In this document: piece after piece, positions 35,522-39,692 of the stretch
How the letters are laid out: the number at the start of each line of letters is the position of its first letter
Position numbering within the stretch: position 1 is the stretch's first letter
Virus record (IMG/VR): IMGVR_UViG_3300015155_000017
Strand: one strand, 5' to 3'
Origin: a virus
Lineage: Duplodnaviria > Heunggongvirae > Uroviricota > Caudoviricetes
Length of the DNA: 61,304 nucleotides
The notes under the pieces: generated by a model
Seen by the model: only the letters and a program-made list of their open reading frames with translations
Database searches by the model: none
What the model was told of the DNA's origin: nothing
Made by a program: the position numbers and the translations under genes

Positions 35522-36553
35522 ATGTCCAATTTACTGACCGTACACCAAAATTTGCCTGCATTACCGGTCGATGCAACGAGTGATGAGGTTCGCAAGAACC
35601 TGATGGACATGTTCAGGGATCGCCAGGCGTTTTCTGAGCATACCTGGAAAATGCTTCTGTCCGTTTGCCGGTCGTGGGCGGCATGGTGCAAGTTGAATAA
35701 CCGGAAATGGTTTCCCGCAGAACCTGAAGATGTTCGCGATTATCTTCTATATCTTCAGGCGCGCGGTCTGGCAGTAAAAACTATCCAGCAACATTTGGGC
35801 CAGCTAAACATGCTTCATCGTCGGTCCGGGCTGCCACGACCAAGTGACAGTAATGCTGTTTCACTGGTCATGCGACGGATCCGAAAAGAAAACGTTGATG
35901 CCGGTGAACGTGCAAAACAGGCACTGGCGTTCGAACGCACTGATTTCGACCAGGTTCGTTCACTCATGGAAAATAGCGATCGCTGCCAGGATATACGTAA
36001 TCTGGCATTTCTGGGGATTGCTTATAACACCCTGTTACGTATAGCCGAAATTGCCAGGATCAGGGTTAAAGATATCTCACGTACAGACGGTGGGAGAATG
36101 TTAATCCATATTGGCAGAACGAAAACGCTGGTTAGTACCGCTGGTGTAGAGAAGGCACTTAGCCTGGGGGTAACTAAACTGGTCGAGCGATGGATTTCTG
36201 TCTCTGGTGTGGCTGATGATCCGAATAACTACTTGCTTTGCCGTGTCAGAAAAAATGGCGTAGCTGCGCCATCTGCCACCAGCCAGCTATCAACTCGCGC
36301 CCTGGAAGGGATTTTTGAAGCAACTCATCGATTGATTTACGGCGCTAAGGATGACTCTGGTCAGAGATACCTGGCCTGGTCTGGACACAGTGCCCGTGTC
36401 GGAGCCGCGCGAGATATGGCCCGCGCCGGAGTTTCAATACCGGAGATCATGCAAGCTGGTGGCTGGACCAACGTAAATATTGTCATGAACTATATCCGTA
36501 ACCTGGATAGTGAAACAGGGGCAATGGTGCGCCTGCTGGAAGATGGCGATTAG
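35522..36553 (+). CDS. cre: Cre tyrosine recombinase (343 aa)
   Basis: MSNLLTVHQNLPALPVDATSDEVRKNLMDMFRDRQAFSEHTWK... matches Cre. Confidence 0.98.
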   Translation: MSNLLTVHQNLPALPVDATSDEVRKNLMDMFRDRQAFSEHTWKMLLSVCRSWAAWCKLNNRKWFPAEPEDVRDYLLYLQARGLAVKTIQQHLGQLNMLHRRSGLPRPSDSNAVSLVMRRIRKENVDAGERAKQALAFERTDFDQVRSLMENSDRCQDIRNLAFLGIAYNTLLRIAEIARIRVKDISRTDGGRMLIHIGRTKTLVSTAGVEKALSLGVTKLVERWISVSGVADDPNNYLLCRVRKNGVAAPSATSQLSTRALEGIFEATHRLIYGAKDDSGQRYLAWSGHSARVGAARDMARAGVSIPEIMQAGGWTNVNIVMNYIRNLDSETGAMVRLLEDGD

Positions 36554-36570
36554 CCATTAACGTGTAAATG

Positions 36571-36587
36571 ATTGCTCTAATACTTTG
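36571..36587 (+). promoter_or_regulatory. C1 operator upstream of cra
   Basis: ATTGCTCTAATACTTTG. Confidence 0.55.
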
Positions 36588-36603: not shown

Positions 36604-36915
36604 ATGAGAAAGAATTTCAACATCGACGGAAAATATGTAGTGCTGTCAGTGAGCACTAATATTCAGTCGCCAGCCGTCATTGTCACTGTAAAGCTGAGCG
36701 ATAGAATGCCTGATATTGACTCAATATCCGTTGCGTTCCCTGTCAGAAGTATGCGTAGTGCTGAACATTTCGTGATGAATGCCACCGAGGAAGAAGCACG
36801 GCGCGGTTTTGCTAAAGTGATGTCTGAGTTTGGCGAATTTTTGGGGCACGTTGACAAAGCCCTCTCAATCAGTTCAGCAAGGTCCAAAGCATTAACAGCT
36901 TCCATGATGAAATAA
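36604..36915 (+). CDS. cra: cre-associated function protein (103 aa)
   Basis: Position directly after cre; symbol from P1 order. Confidence 0.6.
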   Translation: MRKNFNIDGKYVVLSVSTNIQSPAVIVTVKLSDRMPDIDSISVAFPVRSMRSAEHFVMNATEEEARRGFAKVMSEFGEFLGHVDKALSISSARSKALTASMMK

Positions 36916-36921
36916 AAAAAA

Positions 36922-36949
36922 GCCTGGCAAGGAGCCAGGCTGCACAAAA
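36922..36949. terminator. hairpin after cra (A-tract upstream, so intrinsic terminator for the minus strand)
   Basis: AAAAAAAA GCCTGGC AAGGA GCCAGGC. Confidence 0.45.
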
Positions 36950-37047
36950 GAGCGGGTTTGTATTCCGCATCCAATCAATCAAGAAGGAGTATAGCACACA
37001 GGTACTGAAGTGAAAAAATGTGATTCGCGATAAACAAAATATCTACC

Positions 37048-37077
37048 ATTGCTCTAATTGATTGCTATAATTGAGCC
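37048..37077 (+). promoter_or_regulatory. two overlapping C1 operators upstream of ref
   Basis: ATTGCTCTAATTGATTG and ATTGCTATAATTGAGCC. Confidence 0.6.
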
Positions 37078-37131
37078 GCAGTTTTTGTCAACTACGAAGA
37101 CGTTGCCATTACTTAACTCCTTGACATCATT

Positions 37132-37158
37132 GGCGGCCATCAGGCCGCCTTTTTTTTG
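37132..37158 (+). terminator. terminator/attenuator hairpin immediately upstream of ref
   Basis: GGCGGCC ATCA GGCCGCC TTTTTTTTG, 4 bp before the ref ATG. Confidence 0.6.
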
Positions 37159-37162
37159 CCAT

Positions 37163-37723
37163 ATGAAAACAATCGAACAAAAAATTGAACAGCACCGTAA
37201 GTGGCAGAAGGCAGCCAGAGAACGAGCGATCGCTCGGCAACGGGAGAAGTTGGCTGATCCGGCCTGGCGAGAATCGCAATATCAGAAAATGCGGAATACT
37301 ATCGACCGCCGTATCGCTAAACAGAAAGAGCGCCCACCAGCCAGCAAAACGCGGAAAAGCGCGGTAAAAATAAAATCTCGTGGCTTGAAGGGGCGAACAC
37401 CGACGGCAGAGGAACGGCACATAGCCAATGCTCTTGGCGCTCTCCCCTGCATTGCGTGCTATATGCATGGAGTAATATCTGAAGAGGTGTCTCTGCACCA
37501 TATCTCCGGTCGTACCGCGCCGGGTTGTCACAAAAAGCAATTGCCCCTTTGTAGATGGCACCACCAGCATGCAGCACCGGCTGAAGTAAGAGAAAAATAC
37601 CCCTGGCTGGTCCCTGTTCATGCCGATGGTGTGGTTGGAGGCAAGAAAGAATTCACCCTGCTGAACAAGTCAGAGATGGAGTTACTGGCTGACGCCTATG
37701 AGCTGGCAAACATCATGCACTAA
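37163..37723 (+). CDS. ref: Ref, HNH-type recombination enhancement endonuclease (186 aa)
   Basis: Cys/His HNH core CIACYMHG...HHISGR...CRWHH. Confidence 0.8.
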   Translation: MKTIEQKIEQHRKWQKAARERAIARQREKLADPAWRESQYQKMRNTIDRRIAKQKERPPASKTRKSAVKIKSRGLKGRTPTAEERHIANALGALPCIACYMHGVISEEVSLHHISGRTAPGCHKKQLPLCRWHHQHAAPAEVREKYPWLVPVHADGVVGGKKEFTLLNKSEMELLADAYELANIMH

Positions 37724-37759
37724 TAAATATATTATTTTTAATAATAAATGATTGACAAC

Positions 37760-37771
37760 TGACAAGTGACT
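37760..37771 (+). promoter_or_regulatory. candidate late promoter element TGACAAGTGACT upstream of mat
   Basis: Motif family member. Confidence 0.3.
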
Positions 37772-37872
37772 TCAGTCAGAATCATCACACGCCCGGTACG
37801 GATGGATCCCTTTTCAAATATTCCATGGACGGCACAGTCTGAGTACCGGGCGCTACCTTCAGTTGTATTGCT

Positions 37873-37900
37873 AAGCCGCCGCTGGTGGCTTTTCTTTTTT
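37873..37900 (+). terminator. terminator-like hairpin directly upstream of the mat RBS
   Basis: AAGCCGCC GCT GGTGGCTT then TTCTTTTTT. Confidence 0.5.
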
Positions 37901-37912
37901 GTAGGGGGCGCT

Positions 37913-38554
37913 ATGGATAAGAAAATATGCGTTGTTTCGATGAGCGTCGGCAAACCGGCATCAATGACTGCTGCATGGATCAATAACGAGCTGATAATGG
38001 CTGAGCGGACCAGCTACCCTGAACGCCGCCGCGATATGGAACTCCAGCTGCTGCGCGAATTGCGAGAAAAAGAGGAAAAGGGTTTTATCGTGCTGGTGGA
38101 AGAGGAAAACAGCTTTATTACTGGTCGAGTTGGCCAGCGTGTAAGGTTGCGCGATCCCTTCATGAACGGCAGGCCGGTACTAATTGAGGCAATGCAGATT
38201 TATAAGGAGCTGGAACGCCAGAAAGCAATCAAGTTACCGCGCAAGGAATCCGGCAAATACATCCTCCACCAAAGCATCTTCGATTCCGAACACGATAAAA
38301 AAGGCGATGAATTTTTCAACATCAACTGGAGCGAAATAACGACAGAGCATGTTCTGACGTTACTATGTTGCTTTGCGACGGAATACAACAACGTTGCCAG
38401 CGCCGACTACATCAGGGCAATGGCTTGTGAAGTGGATAGTCGTGATGACTCATCGCTGATAGCGTCATATATAAACATCATCAAGAAAACTCAAATTATG
38501 GGATGCGCTAGAGTTCCTCAAGGAATACTCACCGGAAAGAATAATATTCTATAA
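37913..38554 (+). CDS. mat: particle maturation protein (213 aa)
   Basis: AGGGGG SD before ATG 37913; P1 position after ref. Confidence 0.65.
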   Translation: MDKKICVVSMSVGKPASMTAAWINNELIMAERTSYPERRRDMELQLLRELREKEEKGFIVLVEEENSFITGRVGQRVRLRDPFMNGRPVLIEAMQIYKELERQKAIKLPRKESGKYILHQSIFDSEHDKKGDEFFNINWSEITTEHVLTLLCCFATEYNNVASADYIRAMACEVDSRDDSSLIASYINIIKKTQIMGCARVPQGILTGKNNIL

Positions 38555-38651: not shown

Positions 38652-39692
38652 TTACATGGGATTAACCACAACCTTTCCATATATATCAAGTTTTGATTGT
38701 AATACGTTGACGTGAGACAATTCTTTATTCGAACTAACTTTATCTAAAATTATATTTTTATCTTTTTCAGTCATGTTATACCCTAAGGTAATTTGCTTGA
38801 ATGCAGAAAAAGGAATTTTCTTTAAGTTAATTTCATGATAGTCATGAAAAACATTAGGATACTCATTTAATAGGCAATCATCAATCGATGGAGAGACAAT
38901 GCTTCCTATTTTTCTCTCGCAATCAGCCAATGGAAAAATAATTCTACTTTCATTTTCAGGAAGCCACTCTTCACCTTTTGTATAAAGAAGCCTATTAATA
39001 AAAAGCTCGCGAACTGAATCTCGATTTAAGATCCCATGCAATGTATTATCTTTATTCTTTATATCTATATTCCTCGATGGCGCAGGATAGCCATTAAATC
39101 GCACTGCGCCTTTATAATAGGTTACAGATGCTCTATCTTCTGGATTATAACTAACATCACACGGCCGATATATTTTGAAAAAATCGTGTGTTTCATCGAA
39201 AACTACAGCAAACCCCTTTCCTATCGATGCATAATGAGTCCACATGTGTAGATTGCAATCACTTTTTGATAGAGAGAACACACCAAGATGACAGCTTACG
39301 GCTTCTACTAAATAATCGTTAAGGCGCGTTACTATTTCTTGGAGTTTAGATTCATCATATGAATCCATTGAGGTAAAACCTTCATTGATTAACAAGTGTG
39401 GAAAATCCTCTCCGTATCGTTTCCCGCAAGGTTTTAAATAATACTCTAACTCTTGTATAGATGGGACATAAGATGGATCTCGTTGCATTTTCTTAAATTC
39501 ATTTCTAGCCCATGCGTAATCGGCTGGTGAAAATTTATTAAAAAATGGAAGAAGTCGCGACTCACTCGACGGATCATTAAGATACTTTGGTTGCGTTGCT
39601 CTAAAGAAACCATCCTCCAGACAAGATGTTCGAATGTGCATGCCCGGCCAAGGTTTTTCCATATAACTCTCGCCTATATATTTAACTAACAC
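38652..39692 (-). CDS. hypothetical protein of unknown function (346 aa from GTG; 336 aa from ATG at 39662); candidate defence/exclusion gene at the P1 res-mod position
   Basis: AT-rich ORF unlike the flanking P1 backbone; sits where P1 carries res-mod; contains GVFSLSKSDCNLHMWTHYASIGKGFAVVFD, which I tentatively recall as the DUF2971 signature. Confidence 0.7.
   Translation of the reverse strand: MLVKYIGESYMEKPWPGMHIRTSCLEDGFFRATQPKYLNDPSSESRLLPFFNKFSPADYAWARNEFKKMQRDPSYVPSIQELEYYLKPCGKRYGEDFPHLLINEGFTSMDSYDESKLQEIVTRLNDYLVEAVSCHLGVFSLSKSDCNLHMWTHYASIGKGFAVVFDETHDFFKIYRPCDVSYNPEDRASVTYYKGAVRFNGYPAPSRNIDIKNKDNTLHGILNRDSVRELFINRLLYTKGEEWLPENESRIIFPLADCERKIGSIVSPSIDDCLLNEYPNVFHDYHEINLKKIPFSAFKQITLGYNMTEKDKNIILDKVSSNKELSHVNVLQSKLDIYGKVVVNPM

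What the first reader, a model, noticed from the sequence alone, without database searches (positions are those of the whole stretch)
37132..37915. Intrinsic-terminator-like hairpins placed directly upstream of ref and mat
A GC-rich hairpin with a T-tract ends 4 bp before the ref ATG (37132..37158), downstream of the overlapping C1 operators at 37048..37077. A second hairpin plus TTCTTTTTT ends about 12 bp before the mat start (37873..37900), downstream of a late-promoter-like motif. Terminators sitting inside 5' leaders suggest attenuation or antitermination control layered on repressor and late-activator control.
Basis: partly seen in the sequence, partly recalled or inferred. Interest (0 to 1): 0.4.

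Follow-up and report, generated by a model that had tools for sequence, protein, structure and literature searches.

The report
Terminator hairpins in ref and mat leaders
Two terminator-type hairpins sit just before the start codons of the phage P1 genes ref and mat: the ref one was already proposed as an attenuator in 1988, while the mat one belongs to a conserved, structured leader RNA that the reference P1 annotation hides inside an over-long mat gene.

Summary
The window is a P1-family phage-plasmid, 97.5% identical to P1 in this region. Both hairpins are at the stated coordinates. They rank among about 9 strong terminator-like sites in 61 kb, where shuffled sequence gives fewer than 1.

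Hairpin 1 (37132-37157) has a 7-bp all-GC stem and U8, and ends 5 nt before an AUG with no Shine-Dalgarno (SD) sequence. It lies downstream of the C1-repressed promoter P2ref. A 1988 paper title already reports "attenuator-antiterminator control" of ref, so this half is known.

Hairpin 2 (37873-37900) is the more interesting half. AF234172 starts mat at 37802, which would put the hairpin inside the gene. That frame is broken in 45 of 86 distinct relatives, and homologues down to 39% identity start at MDKKIC (37913). Hairpin 2 is therefore in a leader.

That leader is conserved (pi 0.010, against 0.067 at adjacent third-codon positions). Its 5' domain is closed by a 10-bp stem with compensatory changes at 4 pairs. 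A hairpin plus T-tract precedes mat in every lineage examined. The motif has no Rfam match and occurs only upstream of mat (104 of 104 hits).

Neither leader has a convincing antiterminator fold, so how RNA polymerase reads through remains open. I found no transcript data for either leader.

The parts
36921..36941 (-). Terminator-like hairpin just 3' of c8. Its T-tract is only on the minus strand, so it is not a canonical terminator for cre-c8 (+) transcripts.
   Evidence: (-16.2 kcal/mol)
37043..37071 (+). P2ref. The -35 is at 37043-37048 and the -10 TATAAT is at 37066-37071, preceded by TGn. It overlaps the single C1 operator Oref (37048-37064). Predicted start site about 37078.
   Evidence: AF234172 annotation; operator search; sequence
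37078..37131 (+). 5' part of the ref leader. Its predicted 5' hairpin is not maintained in the most diverged variants.
37103..37130 (+). Predicted promoter P1ref (TTGCCA-16-TGaCATCAT). Its start site (about 37136-37139) falls inside the 5' arm of hairpin 1.
   Evidence: RNAs from these starts cannot form the hairpin
37132..37157 (+). Hairpin 1: 7-bp all-GC stem, 4-nt loop and U8. This is the ref leader terminator (attenuator).
   Evidence: 1988 paper title
37163..37723 (+). ref CDS (186 aa, RecA-dependent nuclease). No SD sequence upstream.
37714..37731 (-). C1 operator Omat, as annotated. It overlaps the ref stop codon.
37752..37782 (+). Pmat/LPmat: -35 TTGACA at 37752-37757, late -22 box AAGTGACTT at 37764-37772, -10 CAGAAT at 37777-37782. 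Predicted start site about 37789.
   Evidence: the same three elements are kept at fixed spacing in diverged lineages
37790..37853 (+). Structured 5' domain of the mat leader. A 10-bp closing stem (37790-37799 with 37844-37853) encloses small helices and invariant unpaired blocks (GAUGG, CUUUYCAAA, UUCCAYGGACGG).
   Evidence: covariation; 71-74% identity against about 40% at CDS third positions
37854..37872 (+). Linker of variable length and sequence.
37873..37900 (+). Hairpin 2: 8-bp stem, 3-nt loop and UUCUUUUUU. This is the mat leader terminator.
37903..37908 (+). SD-like AGGGGG for mat. The G-run varies in length among relatives.
37913..38554 (+). mat CDS as supported here (213 aa, MDKKIC...). 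The AF234172 start at 37802 is not supported.

Best explanation
Both features are genuine terminator-type hairpins of the Rho-independent kind, embedded in 5' leaders. They act as attenuators and insulators.

Hairpin 1 is the ref attenuator already proposed in 1988. RNA started at the C1-repressed promoter P2ref (about 37078) folds by default into a 7-bp GC hairpin followed by U8, 5 nt before an AUG with no SD. Most transcripts from P2ref, and read-through from cre-c8, should stop there as a leader RNA of about 80 nt. ref mRNA would then come from read-through, from the predicted promoter P1ref, or from both. P1ref would start inside the 5' arm, so its RNA cannot form the hairpin.

Hairpin 2 is the 3' module of a conserved mat leader of about 110 nt. 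The order is: Pmat/LPmat start (about 37789), a 64-nt domain closed by a covarying 10-bp stem, a linker, the hairpin and U-tract, the SD, then AUG 37913. By default it also folds as a terminator, with no competing structure. Mat synthesis would therefore depend on read-through. That read-through could be passive leakiness, or it could be set by a factor acting through the conserved 5' domain. The hairpin would also shield mat from transcription coming out of ref or the variable cargo upstream.

What is shown: the sequences, the folds, the conservation, the covariation, and the non-coding status of the leader.
What is inferred: the start sites (taken from predicted promoters), actual termination, and the read-through mechanism.
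For: - Fold strength and rarity.
- Promoter and operator positions.
- Terminator pair probabilities of 0.96-1.0 for hairpin 1 and 0.94-0.98 for all but the outermost pair (0.61) of hairpin 2 in leader-length RNAs.
- RNAs starting at 37136-37139 cannot form hairpin 1 (dG -3.8 kcal/mol or weaker).
- Hairpin 1 stem is almost invariant in 33-52 distinct leaders. Nearly all stem changes (G.U, or a terminal C replaced by the first T of the tract) keep pairing; one locus, L207, has an unpaired G-to-T change. The loop varies at 3 of 4 positions.
- The c8 hairpin has no plus-strand T-tract, so hairpin 1 is the first canonical plus-strand terminator after cre-c8.
- The 1988 title reports 'attenuator-antiterminator control' of ref.
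- mat start at 37913: PGAP calls it there; the upstream ATG is out of frame in 45 of 86 distinct loci; homologues at 53-71% identity are 213 aa and the one at 39% identity is 210 aa.
- mat leader pi is 0.0096 against 0.067 at adjacent third-codon positions. Segregating sites are 8 of 83 against 37 of 100, Fisher p = 1.4e-5.
- There is no codon periodicity, and the conserved block is read in different frames in different lineages.
- Closing stem is 97% paired, with 4 of 10 pairs changed on both sides. No shuffle of 500 reaches the covariation score, and slid controls pair at 32-49%.
- A hairpin plus T-tract precedes mat in E. coli, E. albertii, Salmonella, Pantoea and Erwinia, and in a 39%-identity metagenomic lineage. 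Loops are 3-8 nt.
- The leader travels with mat where ref is absent.
- The motif is single-copy in the window and lies upstream of mat in 104 of 104 evaluable IMG/VR hits.
Against: - No transcript 5' or 3' end data were available. The promoters are annotated as 'predicted'.
- Conservation of the hairpin 1 stem cannot be separated statistically from background, because all ref-bearing relatives are at least 94% identical (Fisher p = 0.76).
- ref RNA rises 73-fold after C1 inactivation (PMC4713147), so termination at hairpin 1 cannot be complete, or P1ref is not the main source.
- The Salmonella L166 variant of hairpin 2 is degenerate (-4.6 kcal/mol). Loci L230-L233 keep hairpin 2 but have lost the 5' domain. 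The two modules are therefore separable, and the hairpin is not absolutely required.
- There is no alternative antiterminator fold for hairpin 2, and only a weak, non-conserved one for hairpin 1.
- A distant Ref homologue has a normal SD and no hairpin.
Confidence: 0.6

Rival explanations
1. The hairpins are only the 3'-end terminators of the upstream genes: hairpin 1 for cre-c8 and hairpin 2 for ref. They do not regulate the downstream gene. ref and mat would be transcribed from starts that bypass them, such as P1ref inside hairpin 1.
For: - The c8 hairpin lacks a plus-strand T-tract.
- The predicted P1ref start lies inside hairpin 1, and RNAs from it cannot form the hairpin.
- Hairpin 2 is the first plus-strand terminator after the ref stop codon.
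- Other strong terminators in the window sit at gene 3' ends.
Against: - Hairpin 2 and its leader are kept, at the same distance from a conserved -35 / -22 box / -10, in genomes where ref is absent and different genes lie upstream.
- No promoter-like site lies between hairpin 2 and the mat ATG, which are only 12 nt apart.
- P2ref, the C1-controlled promoter, lies upstream of hairpin 1, and ref is C1-regulated.
Confidence: 0.15
2. The leaders are small-RNA genes in their own right. Transcripts of about 80 nt (P2ref to hairpin 1) and about 110 nt (LPmat to hairpin 2), each ending in a hairpin and U-tail, would be stable trans-acting or Hfq-binding RNAs. Downstream expression would be a by-product of read-through.
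For: - Both have the layout of a promoter, structured RNA, intrinsic terminator and U-tail.
- The mat leader has invariant unpaired blocks that could act as seed sequences.
- Its conservation is at the level of non-synonymous sites.
Against: - No Rfam match.
- The terminator is always tightly joined to the mat SD and ATG, 8-27 nt away.
- The motif never occurs apart from mat.
- The 5' part of the ref leader is not conserved in structure.
- No target search was attempted.
Confidence: 0.12
3. The elements act after transcription rather than as terminators. The 5'-terminal stem of the mat leader would protect the mRNA from 5'-end-dependent decay. The U-tracts next to the start codons would act as ribosomal protein S1 binding sites or translational enhancers, especially for the ref AUG, which has no SD.
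For: - The closing stem begins at about +1 of the predicted transcript in all lineages.
- ref lacks an SD in all 33 leader variants and has U7-U10 located 5-6 nt upstream.
- That U-rich tracts bind S1, and that 5' stem-loops stabilise mRNAs, is established knowledge and was not tested here.
Against: A GC-rich hairpin immediately followed by a U-tract is the defining signature of an intrinsic terminator, and it is not needed for either proposed role. The two explanations are also not mutually exclusive.
Confidence: 0.1
4. Hairpin 2 is coding sequence, namely the N-terminal 37 residues of a 250-aa Mat as annotated in AF234172, and has no RNA-level role.
For: - AF234172 annotates mat from window position 37802.
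- The frame is open in the window and in P1.
- Some gene callers produce products of 247-262 aa.
Against: - The distance from ATG 37802 to ATG 37913 is 111 nt in 41 distinct loci, 110 nt in 37, 109 nt in 4 and 112 nt in 4. The extension is therefore out of frame in 45 of 86.
- There is no third-position excess of variation.
- The conserved nucleotide block is read in different frames in different lineages.
- Homologues at 53-71% identity are 213 aa and the 39%-identity homologue is 210 aa, all starting MDKKIC.
- PGAP starts the gene at 37913.
- SD motifs precede that ATG in every lineage.
Confidence: 0.03

Closest known systems
P1 ref attenuator (Windle, Laufer and Hays 1988, J Bacteriol 170:4881)
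   Same: Same gene and same leader. [quoted passage not shown] Hairpin 1 is the only terminator-like structure between the operator and the ATG.
   Different: The paper is not held in the library, so only its title was seen. I could not check which antiterminator it proposed. My folds show only a weak candidate (GUUGCCA 37102-37108 with UGGCGGC 37131-37137), and that pairing is not maintained in diverged variants.
Lambda late promoter PR' with 6S RNA and terminator tR', read through by Q (from general knowledge)
   Same: A late promoter is followed within about 100-200 nt by a strong intrinsic terminator ahead of the late gene, so the default product is a short leader RNA. This matches LPmat, the leader and hairpin 2.
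   Different: In P1 the arrangement is found only at mat and not at other late operons, since the leader model is single-copy in the window. P1's late factor Lpa is described as a promoter activator (PMC8546580); to my knowledge no Q-like antiterminator has been described in P1. The conserved element here is an RNA structure downstream of the start site, not a DNA site within the promoter.
HK022 put RNAs, cis-acting processive antitermination (from general knowledge)
   Same: A structured RNA of about 65 nt is made immediately after the promoter and lies upstream of a terminator. It does not compete with the terminator for base pairing.
   Different: Function was not tested.
Classical leader attenuators and riboswitch expression platforms (trp, pyrBI, T-box)
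   Same: An intrinsic terminator lies between the transcription start and the start codon.
   Different: These rely on a mutually exclusive antiterminator and a sensor such as a leader peptide, tRNA or ligand. Neither was found for hairpin 2.

Membership tests
Intrinsic (Rho-independent) terminator | GC-rich stem of about 5-12 bp with a 3-8 nt loop | tested here: met
   Hairpin 1 has 7 GC pairs and a 4-nt loop, at -16.2 kcal/mol. Hairpin 2 has 8 pairs (5 GC) and a 3-nt loop, at -11.6 kcal/mol.
Intrinsic (Rho-independent) terminator | U-rich tract immediately 3' of the stem, on the transcribed strand only | tested here: met
   U8 follows hairpin 1 and UUCUUUUUU follows hairpin 2. Neither has a T-tract on the minus strand.
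Intrinsic (Rho-independent) terminator | RNA 3' ends and release of RNA polymerase at the U-tract | not testable with these tools
   No transcript data were accessible.
Transcription attenuator (leader terminator with regulated read-through) | Terminator located between the transcription start and the start codon | tested here: met
   This rests on annotated or predicted promoters, on promoter elements conserved in diverged lineages, and on the supported mat start at 37913. The start sites themselves were not measured.
Transcription attenuator (leader terminator with regulated read-through) | Mutually exclusive antiterminator structure | tested here: not met
   For hairpin 2 there is no competitor, and the 5' domain folds independently. 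For hairpin 1 there is only a weak 7-bp candidate that includes 2 G.U pairs and is not maintained in L082 and L143.
Transcription attenuator (leader terminator with regulated read-through) | Leader peptide whose translation controls the terminator | tested here: not met
   The upstream ORF from 37802 has variable length and frame, shows no codon periodicity, and has no SD. The frame upstream of ref is broken by T-tract length variation.
put-type cis-acting antiterminator RNA | Structured RNA made just after the promoter and upstream of the terminator it suppresses | tested here: inconclusive
   The architecture fits for mat, but this is positional resemblance only.
put-type cis-acting antiterminator RNA | The RNA modifies RNA polymerase so that it reads through terminators | not testable with these tools
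   Needs in vitro transcription or reporter assays.
Any curated Rfam family | Covariance-model match | tested here: not met
   There is no hit at E <= 1 over 37788-37915. Only a chance-level hit (suhB/mmgR, 21.8 bits against a gathering score of 41) overlaps hairpin 1.
Mat N-terminal coding extension (AF234172 annotation) | Conserved open frame from ATG 37802 into mat | tested here: not met
   Out of frame in 45 of 86 distinct loci. Homologues at 53-71% identity are 213 aa and the 39%-identity homologue is 210 aa.

The most novel reading that the evidence does not exclude
The conserved 5' domain of the mat leader could be a cis-acting RNA that makes RNA polymerase started at Pmat/LPmat resistant to hairpin 2. 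It might do this directly, as put RNA does, or by recruiting a phage or host factor. Transcripts entering from ref or from inserted cargo would then be terminated, giving a promoter-specific terminator bypass. The same unknown factor might also act at the ref attenuator, where the antiterminator implied by the 1988 title does not, as far as I could find, seem to have been identified.
Probability: 0.12. Interest if true: 0.7.

Novelty: new member of a known kind. Interest (0 to 1): 0.4.

Why it matters
1. It corrects the mat gene model in the reference genome of a model phage from 250 to 213 aa. The segment removed from the CDS turns out to be a conserved non-coding RNA element.
2. It defines a candidate cis-regulatory leader RNA, a covarying 5' domain plus terminator, that has no match in Rfam release 15 and is specific to mat across P1-like elements of several enterobacterial genera.
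3. It puts the 1988 ref attenuator back on the table. The ref gene matters for phage-antibiotic synergy (PMC4713147), and its read-through mechanism appears unresolved.
4. The spacer between ref and mat is a recurrent insertion site for transposons and resistance cargo. Terminators on both sides would insulate phage genes from cargo transcription, which is relevant to engineering P1 vectors.

Tried and rejected
- Rfam scan at E <= 1: nothing for the mat leader, and only a chance-level hit at hairpin 1.
- Primary papers (Lobocka 2004; Windle 1988; Lehnherr 2001; Schaefer 1990; Lu 1989) are not held in the library. P1 transcriptome papers report gene-level data only and say nothing about these leaders.
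- Leader-peptide model for mat: rejected, because the frame is not conserved and there is no codon periodicity.
- Antiterminator folds: none for hairpin 2, and one weak, non-conserved candidate for hairpin 1.
- The 5' hairpin of the ref leader (37081-37101) is not maintained in L082 and L143.
- Test of whether a leader hairpin is general to Ref genes: a homologue at 70% nucleotide identity has an SD and no hairpin, so the feature is specific to the P1 lineage.
- Covariance model of the mat leader: no second copy in the window, and the 39%-identity lineage is not detected.
- Mat as a possible antiterminator: the NusG sequence hit (E = 0.3) is to the Thermotoga-specific domain II only. The AlphaFold model is poor (pLDDT 57). 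Foldseek gives only non-significant matches to terminase nuclease domains. There is no support for this idea.
- AF234172 lists no terminator feature at the two other strong sites I checked, so the lack of annotation at these hairpins is uninformative.
- The hairpin at 4425 (+), downstream of a C1 operator pair, was looked at as a possible third example but lies after dmt and was not pursued.
Full report
**Identity of the region.** The window encodes Cre (35522-36553), followed by c8, ref and mat. Positions 36900-38000 are 97.5% identical to phage P1 AF234172 and 100% identical over 37000-38000 to E. coli plasmid NZ_CP103660. Window coordinate = AF234172 coordinate + 35086.

**The observation.** Hairpin 1 (hp1) is GGCGGCC-ATCA-GGCCGCC at 37132-37149, followed by T8 at 37150-37157. 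The ref ATG is at 37163. Hairpin 2 (hp2) is AAGCCGCC-GCT-GGTGGCTT at 37873-37891, followed by TTCTTTTTT to 37900. AGGGGG lies at 37903-37908 and an ATG at 37913.

As RNA the hairpins fold at -16.2 kcal/mol (z = -3.8) and -11.6 kcal/mol (z = -2.5). The lenient consensus scan of 35-40 kb is not enriched (6 found, 4.6 expected). An energy-filtered scan of the full 61 kb is enriched. It gives about 9 distinct strong sites. The raw counts at dG <= -11, with nested versions counted in both real and shuffled sequence, are 23 against a shuffle mean of 0.5. hp1 and hp2 are among them. So is a third site at 36941..36921, whose T-tract is on the minus strand.

Two other strong sites that I checked lie between gene ends: pmgS|pap and lydD|pro. 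hp1 and hp2 differ in that each lies between a promoter and a start codon.

**Annotation context.** AF234172 lists the following, in window coordinates:
- a single, monovalent C1 operator Oref at 37048-37064;
- P2ref, with its -10 at 37066-37071;
- a predicted P1ref, with -35 at 37103-37108 and -10 at 37125-37130;
- operator Omat at 37714-37731;
- Pmat/LPmat, with -35 at 37752-37757, -22 box at 37764-37772 and -10 at 37777-37782;
- a mat CDS that begins at 37802.

A consensus search finds only 37048-37064 at ref within 3 mismatches.

[quoted passage not shown] The paper itself is not held, so I rely on its title.

What I could add:
- In 33-52 distinct leader variants the stem is almost invariant. 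Nearly all stem changes keep pairing, either as G.U or by replacing the terminal C with the first T of the tract; one locus (L207) has an unpaired G-to-T change. The loop varies at 3 of 4 positions. The T-tract ranges from T7 to T10, which also shows that the open frame upstream of the ATG is not coding.
- All ref-bearing relatives are at least 94% identical. The stem's lower diversity (pi 0.013 against 0.059 at ref third positions) is therefore not statistically separable from background (Fisher p = 0.76).
- In an RNA running from 37078, the terminator has pair probabilities of at least 0.96. The only antiterminator candidate pairs GUUGCCA (37102-37108) with UGGCGGC (37131-37137). It is weak and is not maintained in the most diverged leaders. 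The predicted 5' hairpin of the leader is not maintained there either.
- The annotated P1ref would start at about 37136-37139, inside the 5' arm. RNAs from those starts cannot form hp1 (dG -3.8 kcal/mol or weaker). A two-promoter bypass is therefore a simple alternative to antitermination.
- The c8 hairpin has no plus-strand T-tract, so hp1 is also the first canonical plus-strand terminator after cre-c8.
- No variant has an SD before the ref ATG.
- A distant Ref homologue has an SD and no hairpin.
- ref RNA rises 73-fold after C1 inactivation (PMC4713147), so termination cannot be complete.

**Hairpin 2: is it in a leader or in the gene?** AF234172 starts mat at 37802, which would make hp2 coding. 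Several results argue against this.
- PGAP starts mat at 37913 (213 aa), both in the identical plasmid and in an E. albertii plasmid.
- Among 86 distinct loci, the distance between the two ATGs is 111 nt in 41, 110 nt in 37, 109 nt in 4 and 112 nt in 4. The extension is out of frame in 45 of 86. The variation comes mainly from the G-run at 37904-37908 and the T-tract.
- Homologues at 71%, 57% and 53% identity are 213 aa and the 39%-identity homologue is 210 aa; all begin MDKKIC. Each has its own SD.
- The upstream ORF shows no third-position excess of variation. The conserved block TTCCAYGGACGGCAC is read in different frames in the window and in L171.

hp2 therefore lies in a 5' leader.

**Hairpin 2: conservation.** Within the P1 clade the leader (37790-37872) has pi 0.0096 and the hp2 arms 0.003. 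Adjacent mat third positions have pi 0.067. Segregating sites are 8 of 83 against 37 of 100, p = 1.4e-5.

The leader and hp2 are retained where ref is absent and unrelated genes lie upstream. In those loci homology begins at about 37715.

Diverged lineages from Salmonella/Citrobacter, Pantoea, Erwinia, S. diarizonae and IMG/VR (L259, L289, L290) keep four things at fixed spacing: a -35 / -22 box / -10, the 5' domain, a GC hairpin plus T-tract, and an SD with ATG. A 39%-identity metagenomic lineage keeps at least the hairpin, T-tract, SD and ATG. Loops are 3-8 nt and hairpin energies are -10.5 to -15.3 kcal/mol. The exception is one degenerate Salmonella variant at -4.6 kcal/mol.

Between lineages the 5' domain is 71-74% identical, while mat third positions are about 40% identical.

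**Structure of the leader.** RNAalifold and explicit pair counting on 17 sequences give the following:
- The 10-bp closing stem (37790-37799 with 37844-37853) is 97% paired. Four pairs have changes on both sides: CG5/AU4/UA4/UG1, GC12/AU3/GU2, UA11/CG3/UG3 and GC8/AU7/GU2.
- No shuffle of 500 reaches the observed covariation score, and slid registers pair at only 32-49%.
- The measure "pairs with a change on both sides" is not exceptional on its own (139 of 500 shuffles reach it). The structure was also derived from these same sequences. I therefore regard the closing stem as well supported and the inner helices as tentative.
- The hp2 stem is 95% paired and shows only G.U to G-C or A-U changes.

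The 5' domain and hp2 fold independently, and nothing competes with hp2. A covariance model finds one copy in the window (139.7 bits; the next hit has E > 0.1). All 104 evaluable occurrences of the conserved core in IMG/VR lie 70-88 nt upstream of a mat start. Rfam has no match.

**Interpretation.** Both hairpins are best read as intrinsic terminators placed in leaders. For ref this is the published attenuator, with a possible bypass through P1ref. For mat it is the 3' module of a conserved leader RNA that begins at about +1 of the Pmat/LPmat transcript.

The default fold is the terminator, so Mat expression needs read-through. That read-through is either passive or mediated by a factor through the conserved 5' domain. 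The hairpin would also insulate mat from upstream transcription.

The closest analogues, from general knowledge, are lambda PR'-6S-tR' with Q and the HK022 put RNAs. I tested neither function. Rivals are listed separately: upstream-gene terminators only, sRNA genes, post-transcriptional elements, and coding sequence. Only the last is effectively excluded.

**Mat itself.** It has no Pfam domain. The weak NusG hit is to a Thermotoga-specific domain. The structure model is poor, and its best fold matches, to terminase nuclease domains, are not significant. Nothing suggests that Mat acts on its own leader.

**Verdict.** The ref half is already known. The mat half is a new, well-conserved example of a known kind of element, and it brings a correction to the reference gene model. 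Function rests on inference until transcript ends and termination are measured.

Noticed in passing
window 36921-36941 (-) and 37731-37758 (-): A strong hairpin just 3' of c8 has its T8 only on the minus strand (-16.2 kcal/mol). A minus-strand sigma-70-like promoter (TTGTCA-16-AATAAT, 10 of 12 matches) abuts the annotated C1 operator Omat (37714-37731). Together they would bracket an RNA of about 800 nt antisense to ref.
   Followed up: no
window 37150-37165: The ref AUG has no SD sequence in any of 33 distinct leader variants. A U7-U10 tract lies 5-6 nt upstream, and the coding sequence downstream is A-rich.
   Followed up: partly
window 37802-37912, compared with AF234172 2716-2826: The reference P1 record annotates mat as 250 aa starting at 37802. 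Conservation and PGAP support a 213-aa protein starting at 37913.
   Followed up: yes
window 36571-36587: A C1-operator-like 17-mer (ATTGCTCTAATACTTTG, 3 mismatches) lies just upstream of c8. P1 and P7 have ATTGCTATAATTATTTG at this position, and AF234172 annotates no operator there.
   Followed up: partly
window 37701-37751: The ref-mat spacer is the most variable stretch of the region (pi 0.12). It is also a recombination and insertion hot spot: Tn3 in P7, Tn1721-blaCTX-M-27 in P1-CTX (PMC11117986), and homology breakpoints at about 37701-37715 in many plasmids.
   Followed up: partly
window 38652-39692 (-): Downstream of mat the window carries a 346-aa minus-strand ORF with a DUF2971 match (E = 5e-6). 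P1 has the EcoPI res/mod genes at this position.
   Followed up: no
window 37913-38554 (Mat protein): Mat has no Pfam domain. A low-confidence AlphaFold model (pLDDT 57) gives its best, non-significant Foldseek matches to large-terminase nuclease domains (E about 0.02, TM 0.35-0.40).
   Followed up: partly
L230-L233 (metagenome contigs), about 115 nt upstream of mat: The 5' domain of the mat leader is replaced by unrelated AT-rich DNA, with the junction at hairpin 2. The hairpin itself is kept as AAGCCAC-GAATG-GTGGCTT.
   Followed up: no
L175 (Salmonella diarizonae) and L176 (Erwinia), chromosomal contigs: mat is truncated to 21 and 53 codons, but the leader and hairpin are intact. These look like prophage remnants.
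   Followed up: no
window 4232-4259 and 4425-4452: A pair of C1 operators (one a perfect match) overlaps the 3' end of dmt. A strong plus-strand terminator-like hairpin follows about 170 nt downstream, before any sizeable ORF.
   Followed up: partly
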